Shown here: in pieces, positions 1,937-32,397 of the stretch
How the letters are laid out: every line of letters starts with the position of its first letter
How positions within the stretch are numbered: position 1 is the first letter of the stretch
DNA from: Candidatus Thorarchaeota archaeon SMTZ1-45
GTDB lineage: Archaea > Asgardarchaeota > Thorarchaeia > Thorarchaeales > Thorarchaeaceae
Direction: 5' to 3'
Assembly (NCBI GenBank): GCA_001563335.1
Contig: LRSL01000095.1
Coordinates: 14,586 to 78,585 of the forward strand
DNA length: 64,000 nt
The notes under the pieces: generated by a model
What the model saw: the letters and a program-made list of their open reading frames with translations, nothing else
Database searches by the model: none
Told to the model about the DNA's origin: nothing
Position numbers and translations under genes: made by a program

Positions 1937-3919
1937 TTAGACAAGCAATCCAGCTGTCCATAGTACTATCCGTAATGCGATGAGTGCATCGTCACCAGCA
2001 CCATAATCTCCTAACAAGGCGTAATTATCTATGAAGAAATTAGTCCCAGTTACAACGATTCTCCCACCCCCAGCATCCTCCTTGCATCCAAGGACTGGTG
2101 CAGACGGGTGATACCTTGCTAATCGGCTTCCATCAACTGGTATATTCAGAGTCGCTCCAGAATAATGAAATCCACTCACTCCAGAAGTGATAATGTGAGA
2201 ATCGATCTCAGAAATCAAGGCAGGATCATTTCCAGAAGGAACCTCTGTATTTGTAAGTTCAAAGCCGGTGAAGCTCAAGAAATCGTTCACTTGCGATATG
2301 TTCGTGAAACTAGAACCAAGAGTCGCTAGAAATATTCCGCCTCCAGAATTGTAATAATCCTCGTAGGCTTGTTTTTCGGTGTCAGAGAATGGCAACGAGT
2401 AGGTGATAGGTGAGGTTGGTGTTGTTTCATTAGTACCATAGACACAAGGGTCAAGAATGATGACTGAATCAAACTGCTGCAAAAATAAAAGCGAGGTTGC
2501 TGTGCTGTTTCTTATCTCACTAACAGAGATATCATTCATTGTTAGCTCCTTATAGAACTCTCTAAACTGTCCATAATATGAGTCAATTGACCACGAACTA
2601 TGGCTTATGTCAAAAGCAACTCTTGCAATTGCAGATGATAACTCGAATGAAACCTCAAGGCTTGTTGTTCCAAAGTCAGCTGACATGAATTGAATTGTGT
2701 TGTTGAGTAGCGAAGGTCCTGATGATGGCATGTTTGCTACGAGTTTAATGAGACGGCTCTGATTCACTTCGATAGTCGAAGGAATGTCAAAAATCTCAGG
2801 GGAGTTACCTGATATTGAAACTATGAATGTTGTACTTCCGGATGCTAGTAATCTAACACTAAACTCATAGATATCATCATAGAACAACTTCTCATAATCA
2901 ATAGGAAGAGTCGCTGGAAAAACCAGACTAAGAGCTGGTAATTTACCCTCTTGAGAAGATGATTCAATCAATGCGACTGAGTTTTGGACATTCAATTTAC
3001 CAGTTCCTACAACATAACTTGGATAGAGTGGCATTGGTTCTGCTCCTTTCATAAGTGCAGTCATGATTGAACCTGGAGTGTATGTGATGTTATTGTCAGC
3101 AGAATATCCAATAAGCAACGCAGCTGCGCCTGCAACACGAGGTGCAGCAAAACTTGTGCCATAGTATCTTGATGATAAATAGGTGGCCCATCCGTACGCA
3201 CTTATGTCTGGCTTCATGTATCTGTCGAATGTTGGACCAGTAGATGAGAACTCGGTTGGTGTGTCATCTTCATATAAGGCTGCGACCGATATGCAGTTTT
3301 CAAAGACACTTGGTGATGAGATACTAGTACCAGCCAGACCACTATCACCTTCATTACCTGCTGAGGAAACAACCACAACTCCCATACCAAAGGCCCAATT
3401 TATTGCCTCCTCAATAGGATCTCCCAGCACTGGACTTGATCCAAGACTCATTGTGATTACACTGCAATTTTGCTCAACTGCCCAATAGATTGCTGCAGCG
3501 AGAGCAATCGAAGTAGCTGATCCAGATTCACTCAGCACCTTACCATTCACAATCTCTGCATTGGCTGTTTCCGCGACAAGAGTTGCAACTAAAGTACCAT
3601 GAGGTACATTTTCAGGATATGAATCAGCAGTTGTTTCATCCGTTTCATTGTAACCGTATTGAGTTTCGATGAAACTCCGCTGTTCCACAACACGCCCTTG
3701 TAGTGCTACACCAATATTGATTCCTGAGTCTAAAACAGCAACTCTTACTTTGGTGCTCGGACCATCTGCGAGAGGTCCCGTCTGAATAATGAAAACTAGA
3801 CCTGTTGATATAACAAGCATTAGGATAATGATGACAGCGATAATTCGAGTTCCGCTCGATTTCTCCTGTCTAGGTGGTCCATGCCAATAGTAGTCATCCA
3901 TCATCTGTACCATACTCAT
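1937..3919 (-). CDS. Membrane-anchored S8 subtilase with C-terminal extra domains (Site-1 protease-like architecture)
   Basis: N-terminal TM helix; catalytic triad VAVLDSG / HGT / GTSFAAP; oxyanion SAGN; C-terminal alpha/beta domain (VAFDISH...GGRIVVTG). Confidence 0.9.
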   Translation of the reverse strand: MSMVQMMDDYYWHGPPRQEKSSGTRIIAVIIILMLVISTGLVFIIQTGPLADGPSTKVRVAVLDSGINIGVALQGRVVEQRSFIETQYGYNETDETTADSYPENVPHGTLVATLVAETANAEIVNGKVLSESGSATSIALAAAIYWAVEQNCSVITMSLGSSPVLGDPIEEAINWAFGMGVVVVSSAGNEGDSGLAGTSISSPSVFENCISVAALYEDDTPTEFSSTGPTFDRYMKPDISAYGWATYLSSRYYGTSFAAPRVAGAAALLIGYSADNNITYTPGSIMTALMKGAEPMPLYPSYVVGTGKLNVQNSVALIESSSQEGKLPALSLVFPATLPIDYEKLFYDDIYEFSVRLLASGSTTFIVSISGNSPEIFDIPSTIEVNQSRLIKLVANMPSSGPSLLNNTIQFMSADFGTTSLEVSFELSSAIARVAFDISHSSWSIDSYYGQFREFYKELTMNDISVSEIRNSTATSLLFLQQFDSVIILDPCVYGTNETTPTSPITYSLPFSDTEKQAYEDYYNSGGGIFLATLGSSFTNISQVNDFLSFTGFELTNTEVPSGNDPALISEIDSHIITSGVSGFHYSGATLNIPVDGSRLARYHPSAPVLGCKEDAGGGRIVVTGTNFFIDNYALLGDYGAGDDALIALRIVLWTAGLLV

Positions 3920-4100: not shown

Positions 4101-7016
4101 TTGTTTAATGAAGACGCCATCACATCGGAGAGTAACATAACTAATGCATATCATGCAATGCCTCTTGAGGAAGTCCTAGCGAGTCTTCAGGTTGATCCTG
4201 AAGAGGGGTTGACCGCTGATGAGGTAAAATTAAGGACCCAGAAGTATGGTCAGAACGCGATACCAAAAATTCGTGGTCCGTTTTGGCAAGTCTATATTGC
4301 TCCTATTATGAACTGGTTGATTACTATCTATATACTCAGCTCCTTTGGACTTATCATAATCGCACAGTTACTTCCTCCAGGTCAGAATGAGATGGGGCAG
4401 GCTTTGGTCTGGTTGGGGATTGTAACAGTTAATGCTCTTGTGGCTATCTTTCAACAGTATCGGGCACAGAAGAAATTGGAGGCTCTTGAGAAACTCTCAG
4501 CAGGAGAAGCTCGTGTCATTCGTCAAGGATCAGAAACTGGCATTCCTCCATTTGAGATAGTCCCCGGTGATATCATAAAACTAGATTCAGGTGACAGAAT
4601 TCCATCTGATGCAAGAATAATCAGCTCATCAAATCTTACTACTAATGAGGCATCCCTGACAGGTGAGAGTGTGCCAGTGGCAAAGGAAGAGGTAGTTCTT
4701 GGTAAGCGTGAATTACCACTCACAGACATGAGGAATATGGTGTTCTTTGGAACTTATGTTTCAACAGGAATGGCAACTGTGGTGACTACTGCGACTGGAG
4801 GTTTTACAGAGATCGGGAAAATCCAGGGAACCCTTGAAGCATTGAATACTGGTGATATACCACTCAGAAGGAAAGTGAACCTTCTAGCCAAATATCTTGG
4901 AATCGCTGCATTAATTTTGATGAGTGTGTCGGTTCTGTGGCAAGTCTTTGTATATGATTGGCTCAACAGTCAACCCCTCGACTTGGGTTTTGAGAATATA
5001 CTGCGACAGACGCAAGAGGCAATCACTCGCGCCATGACCATCATGCCAATCAACATACCACTTCTAACGACAATTGTTTTGCTAACTGGTGTCTTGGCCA
5101 TGGCAAAGAAAGGTGTCATCATTAGAGACCTTTCCGCTGTGGAAAGTCTCGGTCGAGTAAGTGTCATATGCAGTGACAAGACTGGAACCATGACTCGCAA
5201 TCAGATGACTGTCAAGTATTGTTGGGACACACACAACATGTATTCAATCAAGGGAGATGGGTACGACCCTACAGGTGGCATCTATCTTTTGAAAGGCGCT
5301 GATGATGTTGTTACACTTGAGGTCAATGAAGAAAAAGTACAGGATGTCTTCAAATGGAAGGGTCTCTTCCGCCTTATTGTCTGCGGTGGTATCAATAATG
5401 ATTCTGAGATTGTCAAAGAAATAATACCAGGCCAGGGTGAAATCTGGAAACCATTAGGAGATCCCACAGATGCTGCTTTGCTTACATTGTTTCGCAAGAG
5501 CGGGATTGATGAGGAAGTTGTTACTAAGAAATATGAAATAGTTGAGGAGTTTCTATTTGAATCTGAGCTTAAACGAATGACCAAAATCTGTAAGGATGGC
5601 AAGAAGTTTGTTTCTTTTACCAAAGGCGCAACAGAAGTCCTCTTACCAAAATGCACAATGGTGGACGGAAAGGAGTCTCCTACAAAGATAACACCTGATA
5701 CTGTTAACAAGGTTCGGATGCTCACTACCGATTTTGCCTCGAAAGGATATCGTATCATCTCACTTGCATATCGGCAATTGGACAAGATACCTACTGGTAA
5801 AGATGCTCGAGATGAAACCGAGAATGATCTCATCTATCTTGGATTCGCTTGTATTGTTGACCCACCAAGGGAGGGCGTGAAAGAGGCGGTTGCAGCCTGT
5901 CATAGCGCAGGTATCAATGTTATAATGATCACTGGAGATGCAGCAGCTACTGCGAAAACCATCGCAGAAGACCTTGGTATCTTTGCCCCAAACTCATTGG
6001 TTGTTGAGGGCAATGAAATCGATGATGTATCAGATGAAGATTTTGCTAGAACCAATGTTTTTGCACGAGTAAATCCGGATCATAAACAAATCATTGTCGA
6101 ACGATATCAGGATCAACAGCGTGTTGTTGCTATGACTGGTGATGGAGTCAATGACGCACTCGCTCTTGCTATGAGTGATGCTGGTATAGCCATGGGCATC
6201 ACAGGGACAGATGTGGCGAAGGAAGCAGCTGACCTTGTAATAACGGATGATAGTTTTGCATCAATTGTTTCAGGTGTGCATCAAGGGAGAGGTCTCTTCA
6301 ACAAGATACGCATGATGATATATTTCTACATTGCAATCAACTTGTTTGAGAGCATGATTTTCTTCGGAGCCTTATTCTTCCTTCCAGACACAATTACCAT
6401 GTTATCAGTATGGCAAAGTATCTACTTGGTTGTGACAACTCACTCGTTCCCTGGACTAGCACTTGTTTTTGATAGAACATCGCCATACGCTATGGAAGAC
6501 AAACCGCGTGATAGTCAAGCGCTCATCACACGCAACCTGGGAAAGTTCATGGCATTGAATGTCATTCTCATGACACTTGGAGCAGCAGCAGTCTATATGC
6601 TCACCCTCACTGAGTGGGGTGGTATTGTCGAAGTCTATCCAGAAAACCTCACTGGTTACTACGGAGCCATTGTTGACTCTCCATACAAAGCTACTGTTAT
6701 GCTTCTCTCATTGATTCTACTTGTTGAGAGCACTATTGTCCTCAGTATACGTAGAATCAACATGCCTATACAGCGGGGCCTCAGAGAGCCTGGAACCTGG
6801 ATCTTTGTAATTCTACTAGGTCTAATTTATCTAGCTCACTATCTCCTCATGTATGTACCACTCGCACAAGAAATCTTGACAATATATAATCTAGATTTCT
6901 ATTTCGCACCACTCACCATGTATGATTGGTTCATTGTCCTTCTTGGGGCTTTGCCATCTATGGTTGGCGTTGAGCTGTACAAATGGCGTTTCAGGAAGCA
7001 GGACATTGACCTATAA
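4101..7016 (+). CDS. P-type ATPase, type IIA-like scaffold with non-canonical transport site
   Basis: LTGES, CSDKTGT, KGA, DPPR, MITGD and TGDGVNDA motifs; 10-TM pattern; TM4 reads IMPINIP instead of AIPEGLP. Confidence 0.95.
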   Translation: MFNEDAITSESNITNAYHAMPLEEVLASLQVDPEEGLTADEVKLRTQKYGQNAIPKIRGPFWQVYIAPIMNWLITIYILSSFGLIIIAQLLPPGQNEMGQALVWLGIVTVNALVAIFQQYRAQKKLEALEKLSAGEARVIRQGSETGIPPFEIVPGDIIKLDSGDRIPSDARIISSSNLTTNEASLTGESVPVAKEEVVLGKRELPLTDMRNMVFFGTYVSTGMATVVTTATGGFTEIGKIQGTLEALNTGDIPLRRKVNLLAKYLGIAALILMSVSVLWQVFVYDWLNSQPLDLGFENILRQTQEAITRAMTIMPINIPLLTTIVLLTGVLAMAKKGVIIRDLSAVESLGRVSVICSDKTGTMTRNQMTVKYCWDTHNMYSIKGDGYDPTGGIYLLKGADDVVTLEVNEEKVQDVFKWKGLFRLIVCGGINNDSEIVKEIIPGQGEIWKPLGDPTDAALLTLFRKSGIDEEVVTKKYEIVEEFLFESELKRMTKICKDGKKFVSFTKGATEVLLPKCTMVDGKESPTKITPDTVNKVRMLTTDFASKGYRIISLAYRQLDKIPTGKDARDETENDLIYLGFACIVDPPREGVKEAVAACHSAGINVIMITGDAAATAKTIAEDLGIFAPNSLVVEGNEIDDVSDEDFARTNVFARVNPDHKQIIVERYQDQQRVVAMTGDGVNDALALAMSDAGIAMGITGTDVAKEAADLVITDDSFASIVSGVHQGRGLFNKIRMMIYFYIAINLFESMIFFGALFFLPDTITMLSVWQSIYLVVTTHSFPGLALVFDRTSPYAMEDKPRDSQALITRNLGKFMALNVILMTLGAAAVYMLTLTEWGGIVEVYPENLTGYYGAIVDSPYKATVMLLSLILLVESTIVLSIRRINMPIQRGLREPGTWIFVILLGLIYLAHYLLMYVPLAQEILTIYNLDFYFAPLTMYDWFIVLLGALPSMVGVELYKWRFRKQDIDL

Positions 7017-7126: not shown

Positions 7127-7984
7127 TTGGCTCGGAAGACAACTCATAGCATCCGTCTTATGAAGAAGAAACGCAAGAAGATCGTCATGCTTACGGCATA
7201 TGATGCACCAACTGCTGCAATCCTCAGTGAAGTTGGTGTTGATATGATTCTTGTAGGGGACTCCGTTGGAAACTCATTACTAGGTTATGAGAGTACAATT
7301 CCTGTCACTCTTGATGATGTTATTCATCATAGTGCAGCAGTTGCTCGAGCCCGACCAGACTGTCTTATTGTGGGTGATATGCCCTTCATGTCTTACAAGA
7401 TAAGCTCAGAACAGGCACTAGAAAACTGCAGTTTAATGCTTCAGCAGGGTGGAGCCGAAGCAGTGAAGATCGAAGGTGGTTCTGACTCTGTTGTTGAAAT
7501 TGTGAAGACCATTGTAGATGCAGGAATTCCTGTCATGGGTCATATTGGTCTCACACCCCAATCCATCTATCAGTTGGGCGGATATCGCATTCAGGGTCGT
7601 ACCGCAGAAATGGCTGAAGTCCTAGTGCAACAAGCTGTCAAATTAGAGGAAGCTGGCGCTTTCTCCATGGTCGTAGAACTAGTTCCCTCTGAAACCGCTA
7701 AAATCATCACCGAAACAGTAGGTATACCTACCATTGGAATTGGTGCTGGTCCGTATTGTGATGGACAAGTCCTTGTACTCTGGGACATGCTGGGTCTCTT
7801 CGAAGATTTCAAACCTAAATTCGTAAAGAAATATGCAAATGTTCGGGATTTAATCAAAAATGCTGTGTCTGAATATTCTAATGAAGTTCGAGCAGGCATG
7901 TTTCCTGATGAAAAACATAGTTTTGAGATGTCTGAAGAAGAAACCGGTCGACTCTATGGTCGCACAAAACCTAAAGATGATTAA
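7127..7984 (+). CDS. panB: 3-methyl-2-oxobutanoate hydroxymethyltransferase
   Basis: MLTAYD, ILVGDS, DMPFMSY, AVKIEGG, HIGLTPQ and IGIGAGPYCDGQVLV motifs. Confidence 0.97.
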   Translation: MARKTTHSIRLMKKKRKKIVMLTAYDAPTAAILSEVGVDMILVGDSVGNSLLGYESTIPVTLDDVIHHSAAVARARPDCLIVGDMPFMSYKISSEQALENCSLMLQQGGAEAVKIEGGSDSVVEIVKTIVDAGIPVMGHIGLTPQSIYQLGGYRIQGRTAEMAEVLVQQAVKLEEAGAFSMVVELVPSETAKIITETVGIPTIGIGAGPYCDGQVLVLWDMLGLFEDFKPKFVKKYANVRDLIKNAVSEYSNEVRAGMFPDEKHSFEMSEEETGRLYGRTKPKDD

Positions 7985-8334: not shown

Positions 8335-8757
8335 CTAAAGCAACATATGATTGAGACCCATCTCTTTTAGAATTTCTGGATACACGTCATACAGGGGTTT
8401 AATCTTTGATAGCAATCCCAGTGCTTTTGCTACCGAGCCATCCAGCTTGACTTGACCTCTGGCCATTGCTACTGTTGTGTTGAGTTTTCCTTGCCAGAAC
8501 TTGTTTGTAGTTTCAGACTTTGACCAGACTGATATCTCTGGTTCAACATCGCTGTCAAAAGTCAAAGTTCCAATCTCACCACTTGGTCCGGGGTCTCTAA
8601 AGTTGATGGTCATATGAACCTCGGGATCTTCTATATCAAAGCGAACCACGACCTGCGATTTGGCAAGCTTCTCCATAATCTCTGTATGTTCCTTTGCCTT
8701 AGTCCAGAACTTGTTGAAGATTTCCTGAAACTGCTCTTTACTTTCAAAACCAGTCAT
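8335..8757 (-). CDS. Stand-alone SCP2 sterol/lipid-binding domain protein
   Basis: KFWQGKLNTTVAMARGQVKLDGSVAKALGL is the SCP2 C-terminal signature. Confidence 0.85.
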   Translation of the reverse strand: MTGFESKEQFQEIFNKFWTKAKEHTEIMEKLAKSQVVVRFDIEDPEVHMTINFRDPGPSGEIGTLTFDSDVEPEISVWSKSETTNKFWQGKLNTTVAMARGQVKLDGSVAKALGLLSKIKPLYDVYPEILKEMGLNHMLL

Positions 8758-27473: not shown

Positions 27474-28943
27474 TTGGAGCCAATCGGGACCATAACCAAC
27501 TACTTTCCCTTCTTAAAAGAAGAAACAGTCGACGTTCTGAAGGAAGTTATGGACCAAGCAACAAATTACTATGACTTTGTGGTCCGACTGGGTAGCAAAG
27601 CCTGCGATGAGGATGTCTCCCTTGAACTTGCCTACATGGCCGCCTTACATGTGTGGCGTTCCGAAGAGAGGAGTCTTCAGGACAGACTGCGGGAAAAATT
27701 CAATGACACTCCTGAAATATTGGTATGGACATTTTCACTGATTGATATTCCATACACATTTGTTTATCGTGACAAGATATCAGGAGTTCTGAGTAGAGTG
27801 TAAGAAACAAATCCTCCAGATTGGATGCTCATGGATCTGTATTATGATATCGAGAGTTATCTGATTGGGAATACCCCATCAGAATTCGCTGAGTTGTCGA
27901 TAAAACTTGAAACCATTTTAGACAATAATCCGAATCTTGTATGTTTTGAGTCATATCTCTCAGTTATTCAATCTTTTATACACAGTTTGGAAGGAGATCA
28001 TGTTCTTTCCTTTCTTACAAAGCAAAGAGCTTTGGAGCAAGCACGAAAAGCAAATGATGTCCTTTCGGTGATATCAATAACAGGAAGCCTTGCATATATG
28101 CTCAAGGATCACAATGCTATGTATGCACTGGAATACGCTGAGGAGTTTTACAAACTCGGTGTCTTGTCTGGTCTACCAAGGAAAATAGAAGCTGCAAGAC
28201 ACTACATGGGATTGATACATGCAGTCAGGGGGGTGTATGATATGGCCGTTGAATGCCAAGTAGCCGCTGCTGAGGTGTACAATAATGACAAAGGACCTCC
28301 CAGTTCAAGATGTGCTATTGTTTCAATTTACTATTCTGACTTGGAGGATGCAAGACAGGCGTTGTACTGGGCAAATGAATCGTTTCGAATAACAGGCGGA
28401 AAAGGCGACGTTCAGATGCATTATGCAATGCTACGTGCATTGCATCTACTTCATAGAATAGATGCTGCAGATTATCACCTGAATGAATTGCACAAGCTGA
28501 GTCTGGAGAGCGCAGCTGATTTCGATCAAGCACTGTTCTTGGAAGGAAGAGGTATCCATGAGTTGAAGTCAGGGGATCCGCAAGCTGCAATTGCTAGTCT
28601 GGAGCAAGCACTTGCTGTAGTTGAACCGCTCAATCTTCATATTGGAATCAATCGGTGTCTTGTTGCTCTAACACAGGTCGAGATTCAACTGGCTGATGAA
28701 TCCAGTAAAGACGACTCATCAGGTCCATGGATGGTGCGGCTTGAGAGCCACGCACAGAAAAGAGACTACCCTGGAATCCAGATGCAAGCTGCACTTCTCA
28801 GGGCGGAGTTCCTTGTAAAGCAGGGCCGAAAGAGCGAGGCACGAGAGGTCTTGCAGGATGCTCTCGAAATCCTCGACTCGCCAACTGTGAAGACCCTCCG
28901 CACTAGGATTCAGAATATGCTTGGTGACCTCATTGTTGCTTGA
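27474..28943 (+). pseudogene. TPR-repeat protein, divergent paralog 4, split by an in-frame TAA
   Basis: ORFs 27459-27803 and 27825-28943 are in one frame; SRV*ETNPPDWML aligns with paralog RALMVAPNDWIT; SSGPWM and DYPGI motifs retained. Confidence 0.82.
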
Positions 28944-29069
28944 TTGATTTTGTTGGAGTTTCATCAGCTAAAGTTACCGGAAGCCTTTATAGGAGGCCCA
29001 AATCCATCCCGATTCCTCCGGGCTGAGGAGGTCATATCCCGGAGATTTTGATAGAAGGAAGTATTCCCC

Positions 29070-30221
29070 ATGACTGTTGCTGTTGTTGGTGTTGGATATA
29101 CTGATTTTCGAAGTGCAACTCCCGACGTTACATTCAAGGAACAGATGTTTGAAGCTGCTGTCAAGGCTTACACCGATGCTGGCGTAAGTCCTAGAAAAGA
29201 CATTGGTAGCTTCATCACAGGGGCTGAGGACTACTGGGAAGGCTACTCAATCTTCGACGAGTTTGTGCCTGACCAGCTTGGTGCCACTCTCCGTCCGGTC
29301 TGTACAATAAGTGGAGATGGACTGCAAGCTTTGATGACAGGAGTCATGCAGGTAGAAACTGGGATGTTCGATATTGTGGCAATCGAAGCACATAGCAAGG
29401 CATCTGACATGCTTTCATTCACAGGGATTGTAAGCCATGGACTTGATCCAGTTTATAATCGAAGCATGAATGTGAGCCCCTTCTTTGTTGCAGGGCTTGA
29501 GATGAGAAAGTATCTCTCTGAGACAAAGACAACTAGGGAGCAATGTGCACGAGTTGTAGTTAAGAACAAGAAGAATGCGTTGGACAATCCCTTGGCAGCA
29601 TATCCAGCTAGTATGTCTGTTGATGAAGTGATGAACTCTGAGATGGTTTCTGACCCATTGTCTCGACGAGACTTAAGTCCCTTAGCTGATGGAGCCATTG
29701 TTTTTGTACTTGCCTCTGAGAAGAGGGCAAAGGAGCTCTCGGATTATCCCATCTGGTTGAAGGGACTGAGCTGGATCTCAGAAACACCGTGGTTGGAGTC
29801 ACGAAACTGGAGTGAAGCCACTTACGCCAAGCTCGCATCGAAAAAGGCTTACAAGATGGCAGGTATCATAGATCCCAAGAAACAACTGGATCTTGTAGAG
29901 GTTGATGACTGGTTCTCATACAAAGAGCTTCAACATCTTGAAGCAATTGGAATATGTGAGAAAGGTCAGGCTGGGAAACTACTTGAACAAGGTAAATTTG
30001 ACAGAAACGGAGAAACTCCCGTCAATGTGTCAGGTGGGCGATTGGGAGCCGGCAACCTCCTAGAAGCCTCCTCACTGCAGTCAGTTCTTGAATGCGTGCT
30101 GCAGCTTCGAGGTCATGCAGGAAAGAGGCAGATTAAGAACGCCCGGACAGCAGCTGCTCAATCATGGCGCGGAATTCCAACAGCCACTGGTAGCATGCTG
30201 ATTCTTAGCAATGAGAAGTAG
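29070..30221 (+). CDS. Thiolase-fold protein, Ltp4-like (no canonical catalytic Cys/His)
   Basis: Thiolase fold (SPLADGA, PVNVSGG); GAEDYWEG and ISGDGLQAL lie where ACASG is expected. Confidence 0.85.
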   Translation: MTVAVVGVGYTDFRSATPDVTFKEQMFEAAVKAYTDAGVSPRKDIGSFITGAEDYWEGYSIFDEFVPDQLGATLRPVCTISGDGLQALMTGVMQVETGMFDIVAIEAHSKASDMLSFTGIVSHGLDPVYNRSMNVSPFFVAGLEMRKYLSETKTTREQCARVVVKNKKNALDNPLAAYPASMSVDEVMNSEMVSDPLSRRDLSPLADGAIVFVLASEKRAKELSDYPIWLKGLSWISETPWLESRNWSEATYAKLASKKAYKMAGIIDPKKQLDLVEVDDWFSYKELQHLEAIGICEKGQAGKLLEQGKFDRNGETPVNVSGGRLGAGNLLEASSLQSVLECVLQLRGHAGKRQIKNARTAAAQSWRGIPTATGSMLILSNEK

Positions 30222-30234
30222 GAGGAGATGAAAG

Positions 30235-31398
30235 ATGACAATAAAGAGAAGAGTTGCAGTCATTGGAGCTGGCATCACACTGTTCAGAAGAAGGTTGAAA
30301 GAAACTGGGAAAGAACTCTCCTACCATGCATCGAAGATGGCATTGGATTCTGCAGAGATGAACCTCAGTGAGATTGAGAGTGTTGTGATGGGAACCGCGC
30401 CCGACGCGTTCGATGGAATTCACATGAAATCGGAGAACCTGCTTGATGGAGCAGGAGGAACCGGACGACCCTATATGCGCCCCTTTGTGGGTGGTGGTAC
30501 TGGTGTGTTTGCACCCATTGCTGGATGGTGGCATGTAGCTTCAGGTCTTTATGATACATGCCTGGTCGTGGCTGAAGAGAAAATGAGTCCAGTACAACCA
30601 CATCCCCAGACCGCCTTTCGTACTATCTGGGACCCAATCATCACGAGACCGCTTCAACCTAATCTTGTCTGGATCTTCGCCCTCGAGATGAACCGATACA
30701 TGACGAAACACAACATCCCAAAGGAGCACATCGCTGAGGTTGCAGTTAAGAATAAGAGCAACGCCCTGGACCATCCCAGTGCTCAACTAGCAGCAAAGAT
30801 TACTGTTGAGGACGTAATGAACTCAGAAACAATGGTCTGGCCAGTGCAACGACTGGATATCAGTCCACCAAGCGATGGAGCTGCAGCATTGGTTCTGGCA
30901 TCTGAGGAGGTCGCCAAAAAATACACCGACTCGCCAGTCTGGATTGATGGTGTGGGTTGGTCACTCGATAGTTCGTACTGGACAAATCGAGACCTATACT
31001 ACCCTCAATACGTTGAGGAGGCTGCAAAAATGGCCTACAAGATGGCAAAAATTGATGACCCACCCAACCAGGTATCCTTCGCTGAACCATATGATCCGTT
31101 CACCTACAAAGAGCTTCATCACATGGAAGGGCTTCTCTTGGCAAAGAAGGGAGAGGCACCAAAACTCACCCACGAGGGAGTAACTCAACGTGATGGAAAA
31201 CTACCGATTTGTCCATCTGGTGGTCTACTTGGCGTTGGTAACCCAATAGCCGCTGCTGGATTGATGAAGTGCTGCGAGGCATTCTGGCAACTGCGAAATG
31301 AGGCTGGGAAACGACAGGTCGATGGAGCAGAGACCGGTGTGTGTCAAGCATGGGGAGATCTCATGCAGGTTGGTACAGTGACAGTGTTCAGGAGATGA
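30235..31398 (+). CDS. Thiolase-fold protein, Ltp3-like (no canonical catalytic Cys/His)
   Basis: GTAPDAFDG, FVGGGTG, EEKMS, SPPSDGA and PSGGLLGVGNPIAAAG motifs. Confidence 0.87.
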   Translation: MTIKRRVAVIGAGITLFRRRLKETGKELSYHASKMALDSAEMNLSEIESVVMGTAPDAFDGIHMKSENLLDGAGGTGRPYMRPFVGGGTGVFAPIAGWWHVASGLYDTCLVVAEEKMSPVQPHPQTAFRTIWDPIITRPLQPNLVWIFALEMNRYMTKHNIPKEHIAEVAVKNKSNALDHPSAQLAAKITVEDVMNSETMVWPVQRLDISPPSDGAAALVLASEEVAKKYTDSPVWIDGVGWSLDSSYWTNRDLYYPQYVEEAAKMAYKMAKIDDPPNQVSFAEPYDPFTYKELHHMEGLLLAKKGEAPKLTHEGVTQRDGKLPICPSGGLLGVGNPIAAAGLMKCCEAFWQLRNEAGKRQVDGAETGVCQAWGDLMQVGTVTVFRR

Positions 31399-31922
31399 TG
31401 ACAATGAGTGAGAAGATGAAAGAAGTTCCAGGAATATACCTCCGGGATGCTGAACTCAAGGCAAAAGACGCCATCACGTTCAAGTGGCGTCCAAATGCTA
31501 AATATGTCTGGGCTGGGGGAATTGCATATAGTCGATACTTGGAGGAACTCAAGAATGGTCGTATCATTGGCAGACATTGCAGTGAGTGCGAACGAATTCT
31601 TGTTCCACCAAGGATGTTCTGCGACAAGTGTTTCCGTGCCACAGATGAATGGGTGTATGTCAAGGACACAGGAACCATCAACACCTATTCAGTGTCATAT
31701 CTAGATGCTGATGCCAACCGGATTAAAGAGCCAATCCTCGTTGCAGTCATCGAACTGGATGGTGCGAGCGAGGGCATTGGCATACTCCACTATGTTGACC
31801 CGAAAGTAGATCCGAAAGACCTGCATGTTGGGATGAGACTCAAGGCTGTCTGGAAACCTGAGAAAGAGCGGACTGGATCAGTCACTGATATCGCTTATTT
31901 CGAACCAATAAAGGAGGGCTAG
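31395..31922 (+). CDS. DUF35 Zn-ribbon/OB-fold protein
   Basis: CSEC...PPRMFCDKC, GTINTYS and VGMRLKAVW; ATGA overlap with the thiolase stop. Confidence 0.9.
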   Translation: MMTMSEKMKEVPGIYLRDAELKAKDAITFKWRPNAKYVWAGGIAYSRYLEELKNGRIIGRHCSECERILVPPRMFCDKCFRATDEWVYVKDTGTINTYSVSYLDADANRIKEPILVAVIELDGASEGIGILHYVDPKVDPKDLHVGMRLKAVWKPEKERTGSVTDIAYFEPIKEG

Positions 31923-31926
31923 AGAA

Positions 31927-32397
31927 ATGTCTTTTGATAAGAATACTAATCCATTGAAACTTCATCACGTAATTGGAGATATGGAGGCTGACTATATCTA
32001 TACACCTGGAATTGCAGGTGACAAGTTCTTCAAAACACTACGAGACGAAGGGAAGTTTCTCGCAACTCATTGTGAATCATGCGACCACACCTACCTACCT
32101 CCTCGAATGTACTGCGAGAGGTGCTTCTTAAAGCTTGACAAATGGATCGAAGCAGAATCCACTGGCGTTGTCGACACATTCACCTTAGTGAGTGAAGACA
32201 GTAATGGCGATAAATTAACCGAACCTGTTCTTGTTGCCTTCATCAGGATTGACAAGACGAATGGTGGTGTGATTCATAAACTTGGTGGGATTGATGCTGA
32301 GTCAGCCAAGGTTGGTATGAAGGTCAAGGCGGTTCTGAAGGACAAATCAAAACGCACTGGTGGTCTGACAGATATAGCCCATTTTACACCTCAATGA
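31927..32397 (+). CDS. DUF35 Zn-ribbon/OB-fold protein
   Basis: CESC...PPRMYCERC, GVVDTFT and VGMKVKAV; SD GGAGG. Confidence 0.9.
   Translation: MSFDKNTNPLKLHHVIGDMEADYIYTPGIAGDKFFKTLRDEGKFLATHCESCDHTYLPPRMYCERCFLKLDKWIEAESTGVVDTFTLVSEDSNGDKLTEPVLVAFIRIDKTNGGVIHKLGGIDAESAKVGMKVKAVLKDKSKRTGGLTDIAHFTPQ

What the first reader, a model, noticed from the sequence alone, without database searches (positions are those of the whole stretch)
4101..7016. SERCA-like P-type ATPase with ion site II replaced by hydrophobic residues: TM4 PINI resembles the P4 lipid-flippase PISL
Seen: the catalytic motifs are intact (TGES, DKTGT, TGDGVND), but TM4 reads IMPINIP (5046-5060) and TM6 reads QSIYLVVTTHSFP. TM5 INLFE and TM8 LVE keep their polar residues. 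Known: SERCA binds Ca2+ with E309 (PEGL), N768, E771, N796, T799, D800 and E908, while eukaryote-specific P4 flippases carry Ile at the E309 position (PISL) and use DGET. Hand alignment gives E309->I, N796->V and D800->H, so site II is gone and site I is altered. Inference: this is not an ordinary Ca2+ pump. It may move a hydrophobic or lipid substrate or a different ion, and in a probable Asgard genome it is a candidate P2-to-P4 intermediate or a convergent flippase.
Basis: partly seen in the sequence, partly recalled or inferred. Interest (0 to 1): 0.85.

Follow-up and report, generated by a model that had tools for sequence, protein, structure and literature searches.

The report
Asgard P-type pump, rebuilt ion site
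This gene encodes an intact ATP-driven membrane pump from an undescribed Asgard-archaeal branch of the calcium-pump family; one calcium site is filled in and the other is rebuilt around a histidine, so it probably pumps a small ion other than calcium and is not a lipid flippase.

Summary
Window 4101-7016 (+) encodes a 971-aa P-type ATPase with intact TGES, DKTGT and TGDGVND. HMMER alignments to LMCA1 and SERCA confirm E309->Ile, N796->Val and D800->His, with N768, E771 and E908 kept. It is not a private change: 163 of 163 evaluable homologues carry P-I-N-I-[PV], NxxE and the His.

The protein belongs to one well-supported clade inside the P2A-like radiation and outside P3A proton pumps. The clade was found in 201 of 301 Asgard genomes and 13 of 30 families. 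These genomes also carry ordinary PEGL-type pumps.

The flippase or P4-ancestor reading is not supported:
- TGES is present, not DGET.
- The Pfam domains are cation-ATPase N and C termini.
- The P4 model scores 98 bits, against 93 and 73 for the ordinary paralogues.
- A hydrophobic residue at the E309 position also occurs in P3A pumps.

Best reading: a single-site pump for a small cation other than Ca2+. The ion is unknown; a transition metal or H+ are my guesses. The scan met this family before on other DNA, in eight earlier findings, with the same verdict. None of my six literature searches turned up a description of it.

The parts
4101..7016 (+). Whole gene: 971-aa P-type ATPase, TTG start, stop codon included
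   Evidence: ORF list and translation. Pfam finds Cation_ATPase_N, E1-E2_ATPase, Cation_ATPase, Hydrolase and Cation_ATPase_C. AlphaFold2 model: mean pLDDT 81.6, pTM 0.70, ten long membrane helices.
4659..4670 (+). TGES (A-domain dephosphorylation motif), residues 187-190
   Evidence: Most of the 30 His-type rows listed read LTGES, with a few variants. P4 flippases have DGET here (passage in PMC4937031).
5046..5060 (+). M4 motif P316-I317-N318-I319-P320, in place of PEGLP. Ile sits at the SERCA E309 position and Asn at G310.
   Evidence: HMMER alignment to LMCA1. Family statistics: residue 317 is hydrophobic in 30/30 His-type rows and residue 318 is Asn in 28/30. The model shows the M4 helix broken at residues 313-317.
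5175..5189 (+). DKTGT phosphorylation site (D359)
   Evidence: D359, K360, G362 and T363 are invariant in alignment A1.
6135..6155 (+). TGDGVND hinge motif. It is followed by Leu687 where PEGL-type pumps have Pro.
6336..6350 (+). M5 I-N747-L-F-E750, equivalent to SERCA N768 and E771 (site I ligands, kept)
   Evidence: HMMER alignment to SERCA2. E750 is present in 30/30 and N747 in 27/30.
6414..6452 (+). M6 QSIYLVVTTHSFP: V777 at N796, T780 at T799, H781 at D800
   Evidence: H781 is invariant: 30/30, 163/163 and 25/25. Position 777 is never Asn. Position 780 is variable.
6717..6731 (+). M8 LLV-E876-S, equivalent to SERCA E908 (site I ligand, kept)
   Evidence: E876 is Glu in 29/30 of the family. 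In the 95 Asp-type rows this position is Gln 56 and Glu 36.

Best explanation
The gene encodes a working P-type ATPase of a distinct, mostly Asgard-archaeal clade that branched from the P2A (Ca2+-pump-like) stock.

Shown:
- The ATP-hydrolysis machinery is intact.
- The canonical site II is filled with hydrophobic or aromatic side chains: I317 at the E309 position, and V/Y/F at the N796 position.
- The shared Asp800 is replaced by an invariant His.
- The site-I ligands N747, E750 and E876 are kept, and a new Asn (N318) appears in the unwound part of M4.

Inferred: the pump binds one small cation other than Ca2+ in a pocket made of Glu-Glu-His-Asn-Asn and moves it by the usual E1/E2 cycle. [quoted passage not shown] The latter is what Palmgren's 2023 review reports for the His of P1B-4 pumps.

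My odds within this reading: a divalent transition metal (Mn, Fe, Zn, Ni or Co) about 0.3; H+ about 0.2; Na+, K+ or NH4+ about 0.15. Neither the ion nor the direction of transport is shown. Because the residue at the E309 position is hydrophobic, import on the E2P-to-E2 half-cycle is also possible.
For: Catalytic motifs are intact and the fold is that of P2 pumps. The Foldseek rows listed (ranks 1-50, with gaps) are all SPCA1, SERCA, LMCA1, Na,K- or H,K-ATPase, with query TM-scores of 0.59-0.76.

Residue mapping comes from HMMER.

The changes co-vary perfectly in a 131-row alignment:
- All 30 rows with His at 781 have a hydrophobic residue at 317, and none has Asn at 777. Asn318 is present in 28/30, E750 in 30/30, E876 in 29/30 and N747 in 27/30.
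- Of the 95 rows with Asp, 93 have Glu at 317 and 93 have Asn at 777.
- E876 is more strongly kept than in ordinary prokaryotic P2A-like pumps, where this position is Gln 56 and Glu 36.

The family forms one clade, with support 100 in FastTree (31 rows of 96) and SH-aLRT 100 in IQ-TREE LG+C20 (19 rows of 52). It lies inside the P2A-like group.

This genome also has two PEGL/NL(A/V)TDG pumps, one MgtA-like pump and two CPC pumps, so the usual candidate genes for Ca2+, Mg2+ and heavy-metal pumping are also present.

The clade is widespread and under selection. It was found in 201 of 301 Asgard genomes, often as tandem pairs and with up to four copies.
Against: - No experiment exists, and I could not obtain model coordinates, so the clustering of the five residues is inferred from SERCA and not measured.
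- No metal-binding N- or C-terminal domain is present.
- No neighbour family is shared across Asgard families. Metal-related neighbours (ZnuA, a DtxR-like repressor, Ni-SOD) are sporadic.
- The T799-equivalent position is not conserved (T 8, V 8, A 5, S 4 and others of 30).
- True P3A H+-ATPases occur in some of the same genomes (45 of 301 over the cut-off). This weakens the H+ sub-reading only slightly.
- A Glu-Glu-Asn site could still bind Ca2+ or Mg2+.
Confidence: 0.62

Rival explanations
1. It is still a Ca2+ (or Ca2+/Mn2+) export pump that binds one ion at a modified site I.
For: The best profile and structure matches are Ca2+ pumps: PMR1-type 440 bits, SERCA-type 402 bits, LMCA1 E 1e-116. 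N768, E771 and E908 equivalents are kept. Databases and the Asgard transportome paper label such proteins as Ca2+-ATPases (passages of PMC7997004).
Against: Both residues that from recall are indispensable for Ca2+ transport in SERCA (E309, D800) are replaced, as is N796, and this holds family-wide. All Ca2+-pump equivalog cut-offs are missed by a wide margin. From recall, every characterised single-site Ca2+ pump uses site II, which is the site erased here. The genome has two PEGL-type paralogues.
Confidence: 0.1
2. It is a lipid flippase or a carrier of another hydrophobic substrate, either convergent with P4-ATPases or a P2-to-P4 intermediate.
For: Ile sits at the E309 position, as in the P4 motif PISL (passage in PMC4937031). 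Site II is lined with hydrophobic residues. The organism is an Asgard archaeon (names).
Against: - TGES is present, not DGET.
- No PhoLip_ATPase domains are found.
- The P4 model scores 98 bits against a cut-off of 431, the same range as the ordinary paralogues at 93 and 73 bits.
- No listed Foldseek row is a P4 structure.
- The clade lies inside the P2A-like group.
- Invariant Glu and His remain in the ion pocket.
- Ile or Val at this position also occurs in P3A proton pumps.
- No match to the P4 model at E<=1e-40 in 0 of 301 Asgard genomes, and no CDC50 in this genome. Neither search had a positive control.
Confidence: 0.04
3. It carries an organic cation such as a polyamine, in the manner of P5B pumps. 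The two glutamates would bind amine groups in a widened, partly hydrophobic cavity.
For: M4 is hydrophobic and acidic residues are kept in M5 and M8. From recall, P5B pumps have PP(A/V)LP in M4.
Against: The P5 model scores 213 bits against a cut-off of 618, lower than the ordinary paralogues at 229 and 243 bits. No polyamine-related neighbours were seen. The pocket-lining pattern is that of SERCA site I.
Confidence: 0.07
4. It is a non-transporting or regulatory ATPase whose pocket residues are structural only.
For: No transported ion can be named. One clade member (P0141) has lost the His and Asn318.
Against: Buried, charged membrane residues are strongly conserved over a deep clade (H781 30/30, E750 30/30, E876 29/30), as are all catalytic motifs. 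The family also shows multiple retained paralogues.
Confidence: 0.03

Closest known systems
P2A Ca2+-ATPases (Listeria LMCA1, SERCA1/2, SPCA1/PMR1) and the prokaryotic PEGL-type P2A-like pumps
   Same: Same domain set (Cation_ATPase_N, E1-E2, N and P domains, Cation_ATPase_C). These are the best sequence and fold matches. TGES, DKTGT and TGDGVND are shared, as are the N768, E771 and E908 equivalents. The family lies in the same large clade in both trees.
   Different: E309->Ile, G310->Asn, N796->hydrophobic and D800->His. The equivalog cut-offs are missed (440 vs 798 bits; 402 vs 703 bits). There are further clade-specific residues in M1 (Y65, P68), Q119, R352 and L687.
P3A plasma-membrane H+-ATPases (TIGR01647; examples L154-L156 fetched here)
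   Same: A hydrophobic residue at the E309 position within a P-x-x-x-P M4 motif (IPVAMP and IPVAQP). No site II.
   Different: P3A pumps keep the M6 Asp (LLNDG) and have an M5 Arg. This protein scores 309.5 bits against a cut-off of 615.5. P3A falls outside the PEGL+PINI clade. True P3A genes co-exist with this family in some Asgard genomes.
P4 lipid flippases (PISL, DGET, CDC50 subunit)
   Same: Ile at the position of SERCA E309 (passage in PMC4937031).
   Different: TGES is present, not DGET. The terminal domains are cation-type. The P4 model scores 98 bits against 431. Glu and His sit in the canonical pocket where, per the review passage, ATP8A2 has K873 and N905. No CDC50 gene was found (no positive control).
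P6 ATPases (mycobacterial CtpE) and P1B-4 pumps, as described in Palmgren's 2023 review (passages read)
   Same: Both are precedents. One is a prokaryotic P2-like pump whose M6 Asp is replaced (CtpE: Asp->Ile, proposed Ca2+ uptake). The other is a pump in which a membrane His acts as an internal counter-ion (P1B-4).
   Different: CtpE keeps PEGL. P1B-4 pumps have the eight-helix heavy-metal architecture with an SPC motif (motif recalled). Neither has the P-I-N-I-P plus His combination.

Membership tests
P-type (HAD-IC) ATPase superfamily | DKTGT phosphorylation motif, TGES and TGDGVND, and the generic family model over its cut-off | tested here: met
   Motifs found at 5175-5189, 4659-4670 and 6135-6155. 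TIGR01494 scores 264.2 bits against a cut-off of 62.3.
P2A Ca2+-ATPase (SERCA / PMR1 type) | Equivalog profile score over the curated cut-off | tested here: not met
   TIGR01522 scores 440.2 against 798.3 and TIGR01116 scores 401.6 against 703.4.
P2A Ca2+-ATPase (SERCA / PMR1 type) | Ca2+ ligands of site II: Glu of PEGL, and Asn and Asp of M6 (NxxTD) | tested here: not met
   These positions are Ile317, Val777 and His781. The same holds in 30/30 family rows.
P2A Ca2+-ATPase (SERCA / PMR1 type) | Domain architecture, and placement in the P2A-like clade of a tree | tested here: met
   Cation_ATPase_N and Cation_ATPase_C are present. The protein lies inside the 91-row and 47-row PEGL+PINI clades, each with support 100, as one branch of an unresolved basal polytomy.
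P4 lipid flippase | Family profile (TIGR01652) over its cut-off, and PhoLip_ATPase_N/C domains | tested here: not met
   Scores 98.3 bits against 431.25. The ordinary paralogues score 92.8 and 72.6. No PhoLip domain is found at E<=0.001.
P4 lipid flippase | DGET in the A domain | tested here: not met
   The motif is LTGES.
P4 lipid flippase | Hydrophobic residue (Ile of PISL) at the E309 position | tested here: met
   Ile317. The feature is not specific, because P3A pumps have Val or Ile there (PMC4937031 passage).
P4 lipid flippase | CDC50 beta-subunit | tested here: inconclusive
   PF03381 was not found in G000, which is 87.7% complete. Nothing rang in the controls, so there is no positive control. 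No conserved neighbour gene was seen.
P4 lipid flippase | Lipid-stimulated dephosphorylation and lipid translocation | not testable with these tools
   This needs reconstitution assays.
P3A H+-ATPase | Equivalog profile over its cut-off, M6 Asp as proton acceptor, and clade membership | tested here: not met
   TIGR01647 scores 309.5 against 615.5. His sits where P3A pumps have Asp. P3A rows fall outside the clade.
P5 ATPase | Family profile over its cut-off | tested here: not met
   TIGR01657 scores 213.4 against 618.25.

The most novel reading that the evidence does not exclude
These pumps found a new P-type ATPase subfamily that has given up the universal site II. It works with a His-Glu-Glu pocket at the old site I and carries a substrate or runs in a direction not known for P2 pumps. 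One possibility is high-affinity import of a scarce transition metal on the E2P-to-E2 half-cycle. Another is electrogenic H+ or Na+ export that energises the Asgard cell membrane in the way P-type pumps energise eukaryotic plasma membranes.
Probability: 0.3. Interest if true: 0.8.

Novelty: new variant of a known kind. Interest (0 to 1): 0.55.

Why it matters
From recall, every characterised P2 or P3 pump uses the Asp800/Glu309 region (site II) to bind its ion and to couple binding to phosphorylation. This large clade is conserved in two thirds of the sampled Asgard genomes. It erases that site and keeps a histidine-centred version of site I, which would be a new solution to ion recognition in a very well studied enzyme family.

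Asgard archaea are the closest known relatives of eukaryotes, and eukaryotes energise their plasma membrane with P-type pumps. The ion carried by this pump therefore bears on Asgard physiology and on how the eukaryotic pump repertoire arose. It also corrects a routine annotation: 'Ca2+-transporting ATPase' is probably wrong for hundreds of database entries.

Tried and rejected
- **Scan of genome contigs.** The search for related loci with alignment A1 used the generic patterns around DKTGT and GDGVND. It returned only 30-37% identical PEGL-type pumps of bacteria and other archaea, which was useless for this clade.
- **First phylum count.** The figure of 286 of 301 at E<=1e-100 was rejected as a clade count. 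Profile A1 scores ordinary PEGL pumps at up to 900 bits, as shown for ten genomes of ten families. The count was redone at E<=1e-299, after seeing a score gap in five genomes, >=1089 against <=897 bits.
- **Gene neighbourhood.** I examined 20 loci of 20 kb from 9 families plus the window. No neighbour family is shared across families.
- **Expression.** No RNA holder is listed. This is no evidence either way.
- **Model coordinates.** They were not available in the script box, so I measured no pocket geometry, groove or pKa.
- **P4 and P5 references.** No reference sequences could be obtained through the tools, so they are absent from the trees.
- **P4 and CDC50 searches.** Both found nothing, but neither had a positive control.
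- **Literature.** Six searches and passages of PMC7997004, PMC10456885, PMC10654040, PMC4937031 and PMC7016017 gave no description of this clade. Supplements were closed, so a mention there cannot be excluded.
- **The 'Korarchaeota' label on P0127.** It stands alone. Every other organism name listed is Thorarchaeota, Lokiarchaeota or Promethearchaeota, so I do not claim a Korarchaeal branch.
Full report
**The gene.** Window 4101-7016 (+) is a single open frame of 971 codons starting at TTG, with a GAGGT word a few bases upstream. Pfam finds the full cation-pump set: Cation_ATPase_N, E1-E2_ATPase, Cation_ATPase, Hydrolase and Cation_ATPase_C. NCBIfam places it over the cut-off only for the generic P-type model TIGR01494 (264 bits against 62). 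It misses every subfamily equivalog:
- PMR1-type 440 against 798
- SERCA-type 402 against 703
- IID 397, IIB 381, IIC 324, IIIA-H+ 309.5 against 615.5, IIIB-Mg 308.5
- P5 213 against 618
- P4 98 against 431

The best solved relatives are Listeria LMCA1 (E 1e-116) and SERCA1/2 and SPCA1 (about 1e-104 to 1e-99).

**The observation.**
- HMMER aligns P-I-N-I with P-E-A-L of LMCA1.
- Using the C-terminal 272 residues as query, HMMER aligns N747/E750 with SERCA2 N767/E770, V777 with N795, T780 with T798, H781 with D799 and E876 with E907.
- SERCA1a is offset by one in the same table, so these are N768, E771, N796, T799, D800 and E908.

The hand alignment is therefore right: site II has lost E309 and N796, the bridging D800 is His, and the site-I residues of M5 and M8 are kept.

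**Not a private change.**
- The query and its 120 listed relatives at 66-92% identity all carry AMTIMPINIPLLTT and the M6 His, 121 of 121. Those relatives that carry an organism name are labelled Thorarchaeota or Promethearchaeota.
- Adding the 44 new proteins from a second search gives 164 proteins, of which 163 could be evaluated (P0107 could not). They read PINIP 158, PINIV 5, NxxE 163 and His 163.
- Short contigs from two other DNA runs are identical over the PINIP codons. They do not reach the His codon.

**A family, not a single gene.** A full HMMER scan of 1.84 billion representative proteins found 86,052 relatives at E<=0.001. I aligned the 128 of the 151 sequences (the 150 listed plus the query) that are 840-1100 aa long, dropping 23 fragments or fusions, together with three paralogues from this genome. 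The 131 rows fall into two sharply separated classes.
- Thirty rows have His at position 781. All thirty have a hydrophobic residue at 317 (I 22, F 3, V 2, W 2, L 1) and none has Asn at 777. Asn318 is present in 28, E750 in 30, E876 in 29 and N747 in 27.
- Ninety-five rows have Asp. Of these, 93 have Glu at 317, 89 have Gly at 318, 93 have Asn at 777 and 92 have Thr at 780. At the E908 position they have Gln 56 and Glu 36.
- Six rows are other. One of them, P0141, groups with the His class in the tree but has lost both the His and N318.

Position 780 (T799) is variable in the His class. Further class-specific residues are Y65 and P68 in M1, Q119, L321/L322, R352, N432, L687 (which replaces the Pro of GDGVNDAP) and R885.

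**Phylogeny.**
- *FastTree.* The set had 96 rows and 911 columns: all 31 His-class rows including P0141, every second PEGL-type representative, 9 Asgard PEGL pumps, the own-genome paralogues, 3 P3A pumps and 2 MgtA-like pumps as root. The class forms one clade (support 100). It sits inside a 91-row PEGL+PINI clade (100) that excludes P3A.
- *IQ-TREE.* A short search under LG+C20+F+G4 on 52 rows gives the same picture: 19 rows in one clade with SH-aLRT 100, a 47-row joint clade at 100, and P3A outside.
- The position of the clade among PEGL lineages is an unresolved polytomy. Two long PEGL rows sit beside it.
- P4 and P5 sequences could not be obtained, so they are not in the trees.

**Distribution.** With profile A1 (30 family representatives), ordinary PEGL pumps score up to about 900 bits. 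My first count of 286 of 301 was therefore not a clade count.
- Ten genomes from ten Asgard families whose best scores were 735-900 bits have only PEGL-like (PEGL/PESL/PEAL) pumps with a conserved M6 Asp.
- All 30 loci at 1287 bits or more are PINI plus His.
- In five further genomes the two classes are separated by a gap, >=1089 against <=897 bits.
- At E<=1e-299 the clade is found in 201 of 301 genomes, 68 of 90 high-quality genomes and 13 of 30 families. Examples: f1 57/76, f9 63/68, f5 24/28, f22 15/21, f12 14/19, f14 10/11. It was not found in 17 families, for example f27 0/11, f20 0/7 and f19 0/6. Only the two best candidates per genome were scored.
- Tandem pairs are common in f9, and one genome has four copies.
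- In 21 loci from 9 families, 25 of 25 copies have the His. Family f5 reads PITIP, and one f24 copy reads S for N747.
- Organism names on hits are Thor-, Loki-, Odin- or Promethearchaeota, with one lone 'Korarchaeota' label.

**Context in this genome.** G000 is 3.54 Mb and 87.7% complete. It has six P-type ATPases: this one, two PEGL/NL(A/V)TDG pumps, one MgtA-like pump (PQLLP) and two CPC heavy-metal pumps. The neighbours here are a divergent S8 subtilase (1937-3919, -) and panB (7127-7984, +). That arrangement holds only within the Thor family. No neighbour family is shared across Asgard families, and metal-related neighbours are sporadic.

**The flippase idea.** Against it:
- TGES is present, not DGET.
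- The termini are cation-type.
- The P4 profile scores 98 bits for this protein and 93 and 73 bits for its two ordinary paralogues. The P5 profile scores 213 against 229 and 243. There is no special affinity to either.
- Every listed Foldseek row is a P2 pump.
- The canonical pocket keeps invariant charged residues.
- The one P4-like feature, Ile at the E309 position, is shared with P3A proton pumps. P3A genes fetched here read IPVAMP or IPVAQP and keep the M6 Asp, and a review says the same (passage in PMC4937031).
- No Asgard genome of the 301 searched matched the P4 model at E<=1e-40, and no CDC50 was found in G000. Neither search had a positive control.

**Structure.** The AlphaFold2 model built on A1 has mean pLDDT 81.6 and pTM 0.70. 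It shows ten long membrane helices, with M4 broken at residues 313-317, which is the usual unwinding at the Pro.

**Mechanism.**
- *Shown:* an intact catalytic core, a filled-in site II, and a conserved Glu-Glu-His-Asn-Asn set at the positions of SERCA site I plus G310.
- *Inferred:* one small cation other than Ca2+ is bound there. The His is either a ligand, which would favour Mn, Fe, Zn, Ni or Co, or a protonatable built-in counter-ion. The second role is the one reported for the His of P1B-4 pumps in Palmgren's review (passage). The same review notes that CtpE-type P6 pumps have lost the M6 Asp and that more prokaryotic families are to be expected.
- True P3A pumps occur over the cut-off in 45 of 301 Asgard genomes. 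They often sit beside this clade but are absent from G000, so a proton-pump role is neither needed nor excluded.

**Known or new.**
- Six literature searches and the passages I read found no description of this clade.
- The Asgard transportome paper files Asgard P2-like pumps as putative Ca2+-ATPases (PMC7997004, passages).
- The scan itself has met the family eight times on other DNA, with the same verdict from the follow-up agents. My results agree with theirs.
- What I add: a calibrated count by family, the direct P3A comparison, the paralogue control for the P4 and P5 scores, and the finding that E908 is specifically kept.

**Verdict.** The 'not a Ca2+ pump' reading is supported and the flippase or P4-ancestor reading is not. 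This is a new variant of a known kind.

Noticed in passing
L143:11425-13410, L144:6500-8500, L145:6483-8450 (Thor-family genomes G075, G239, G128): A 655-666-aa ORF directly downstream of the pump gene gives a weak whole-protein hit to E3_UFM1_ligase (PF09743, E 1.5e-10 for L143, with no single stretch passing). It is absent at this position in the window and in L146, where panB follows the pump directly.
   Followed up: no
Asgard genomes, e.g. G041:C7:257992-260217 and G174:C10:16817-19042 (L162-L165): Genes over the curated cut-off of the plasma-membrane H+-ATPase model (P3A, TIGR01647) occur in 45 of 301 sampled Asgard genomes. That includes 8 of 24 genomes in the window's own genus, but not G000.
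   Followed up: partly
G177:C24:25720-31638, G147:C12:8345-14175, G213:C1 (four places): The pump is tandemly duplicated in many f9 genomes, with two subtypes: VxPINLPIL with ..G/AI(A/V)H, and xMPIN(I/L)PLL with ..SIT(L/I)H. It is present four times in one complete genome.
   Followed up: partly
P0141 (representative protein, 993 aa): This clade member reads PVSIP in M4 and has Phe in place of the otherwise invariant M6 His. It may be a degenerate or re-specialised copy.
   Followed up: no
L158 (G305:C13:136168-138495, a cyanobacterial genome reached through L021): An unrelated P-type ATPase has an odd M4 (ILPNEFP, with the Glu shifted by one) and an M6 reading HLIIDP.
   Followed up: no
L153:11733-13106 (G213): A presenilin-family protein (PF01080, E 1.2e-19) lies about 330 bases downstream of one pump copy.
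   Followed up: no
window 8335-8757 (-) and window 28001-32000: A small SCP2 sterol-transfer-family ORF lies two genes downstream of the pump. The window's only G+C bump (0.476 against about 0.41-0.43) covers ordinary-looking ORFs. No Rfam family reaches its threshold anywhere in the window.
   Followed up: partly
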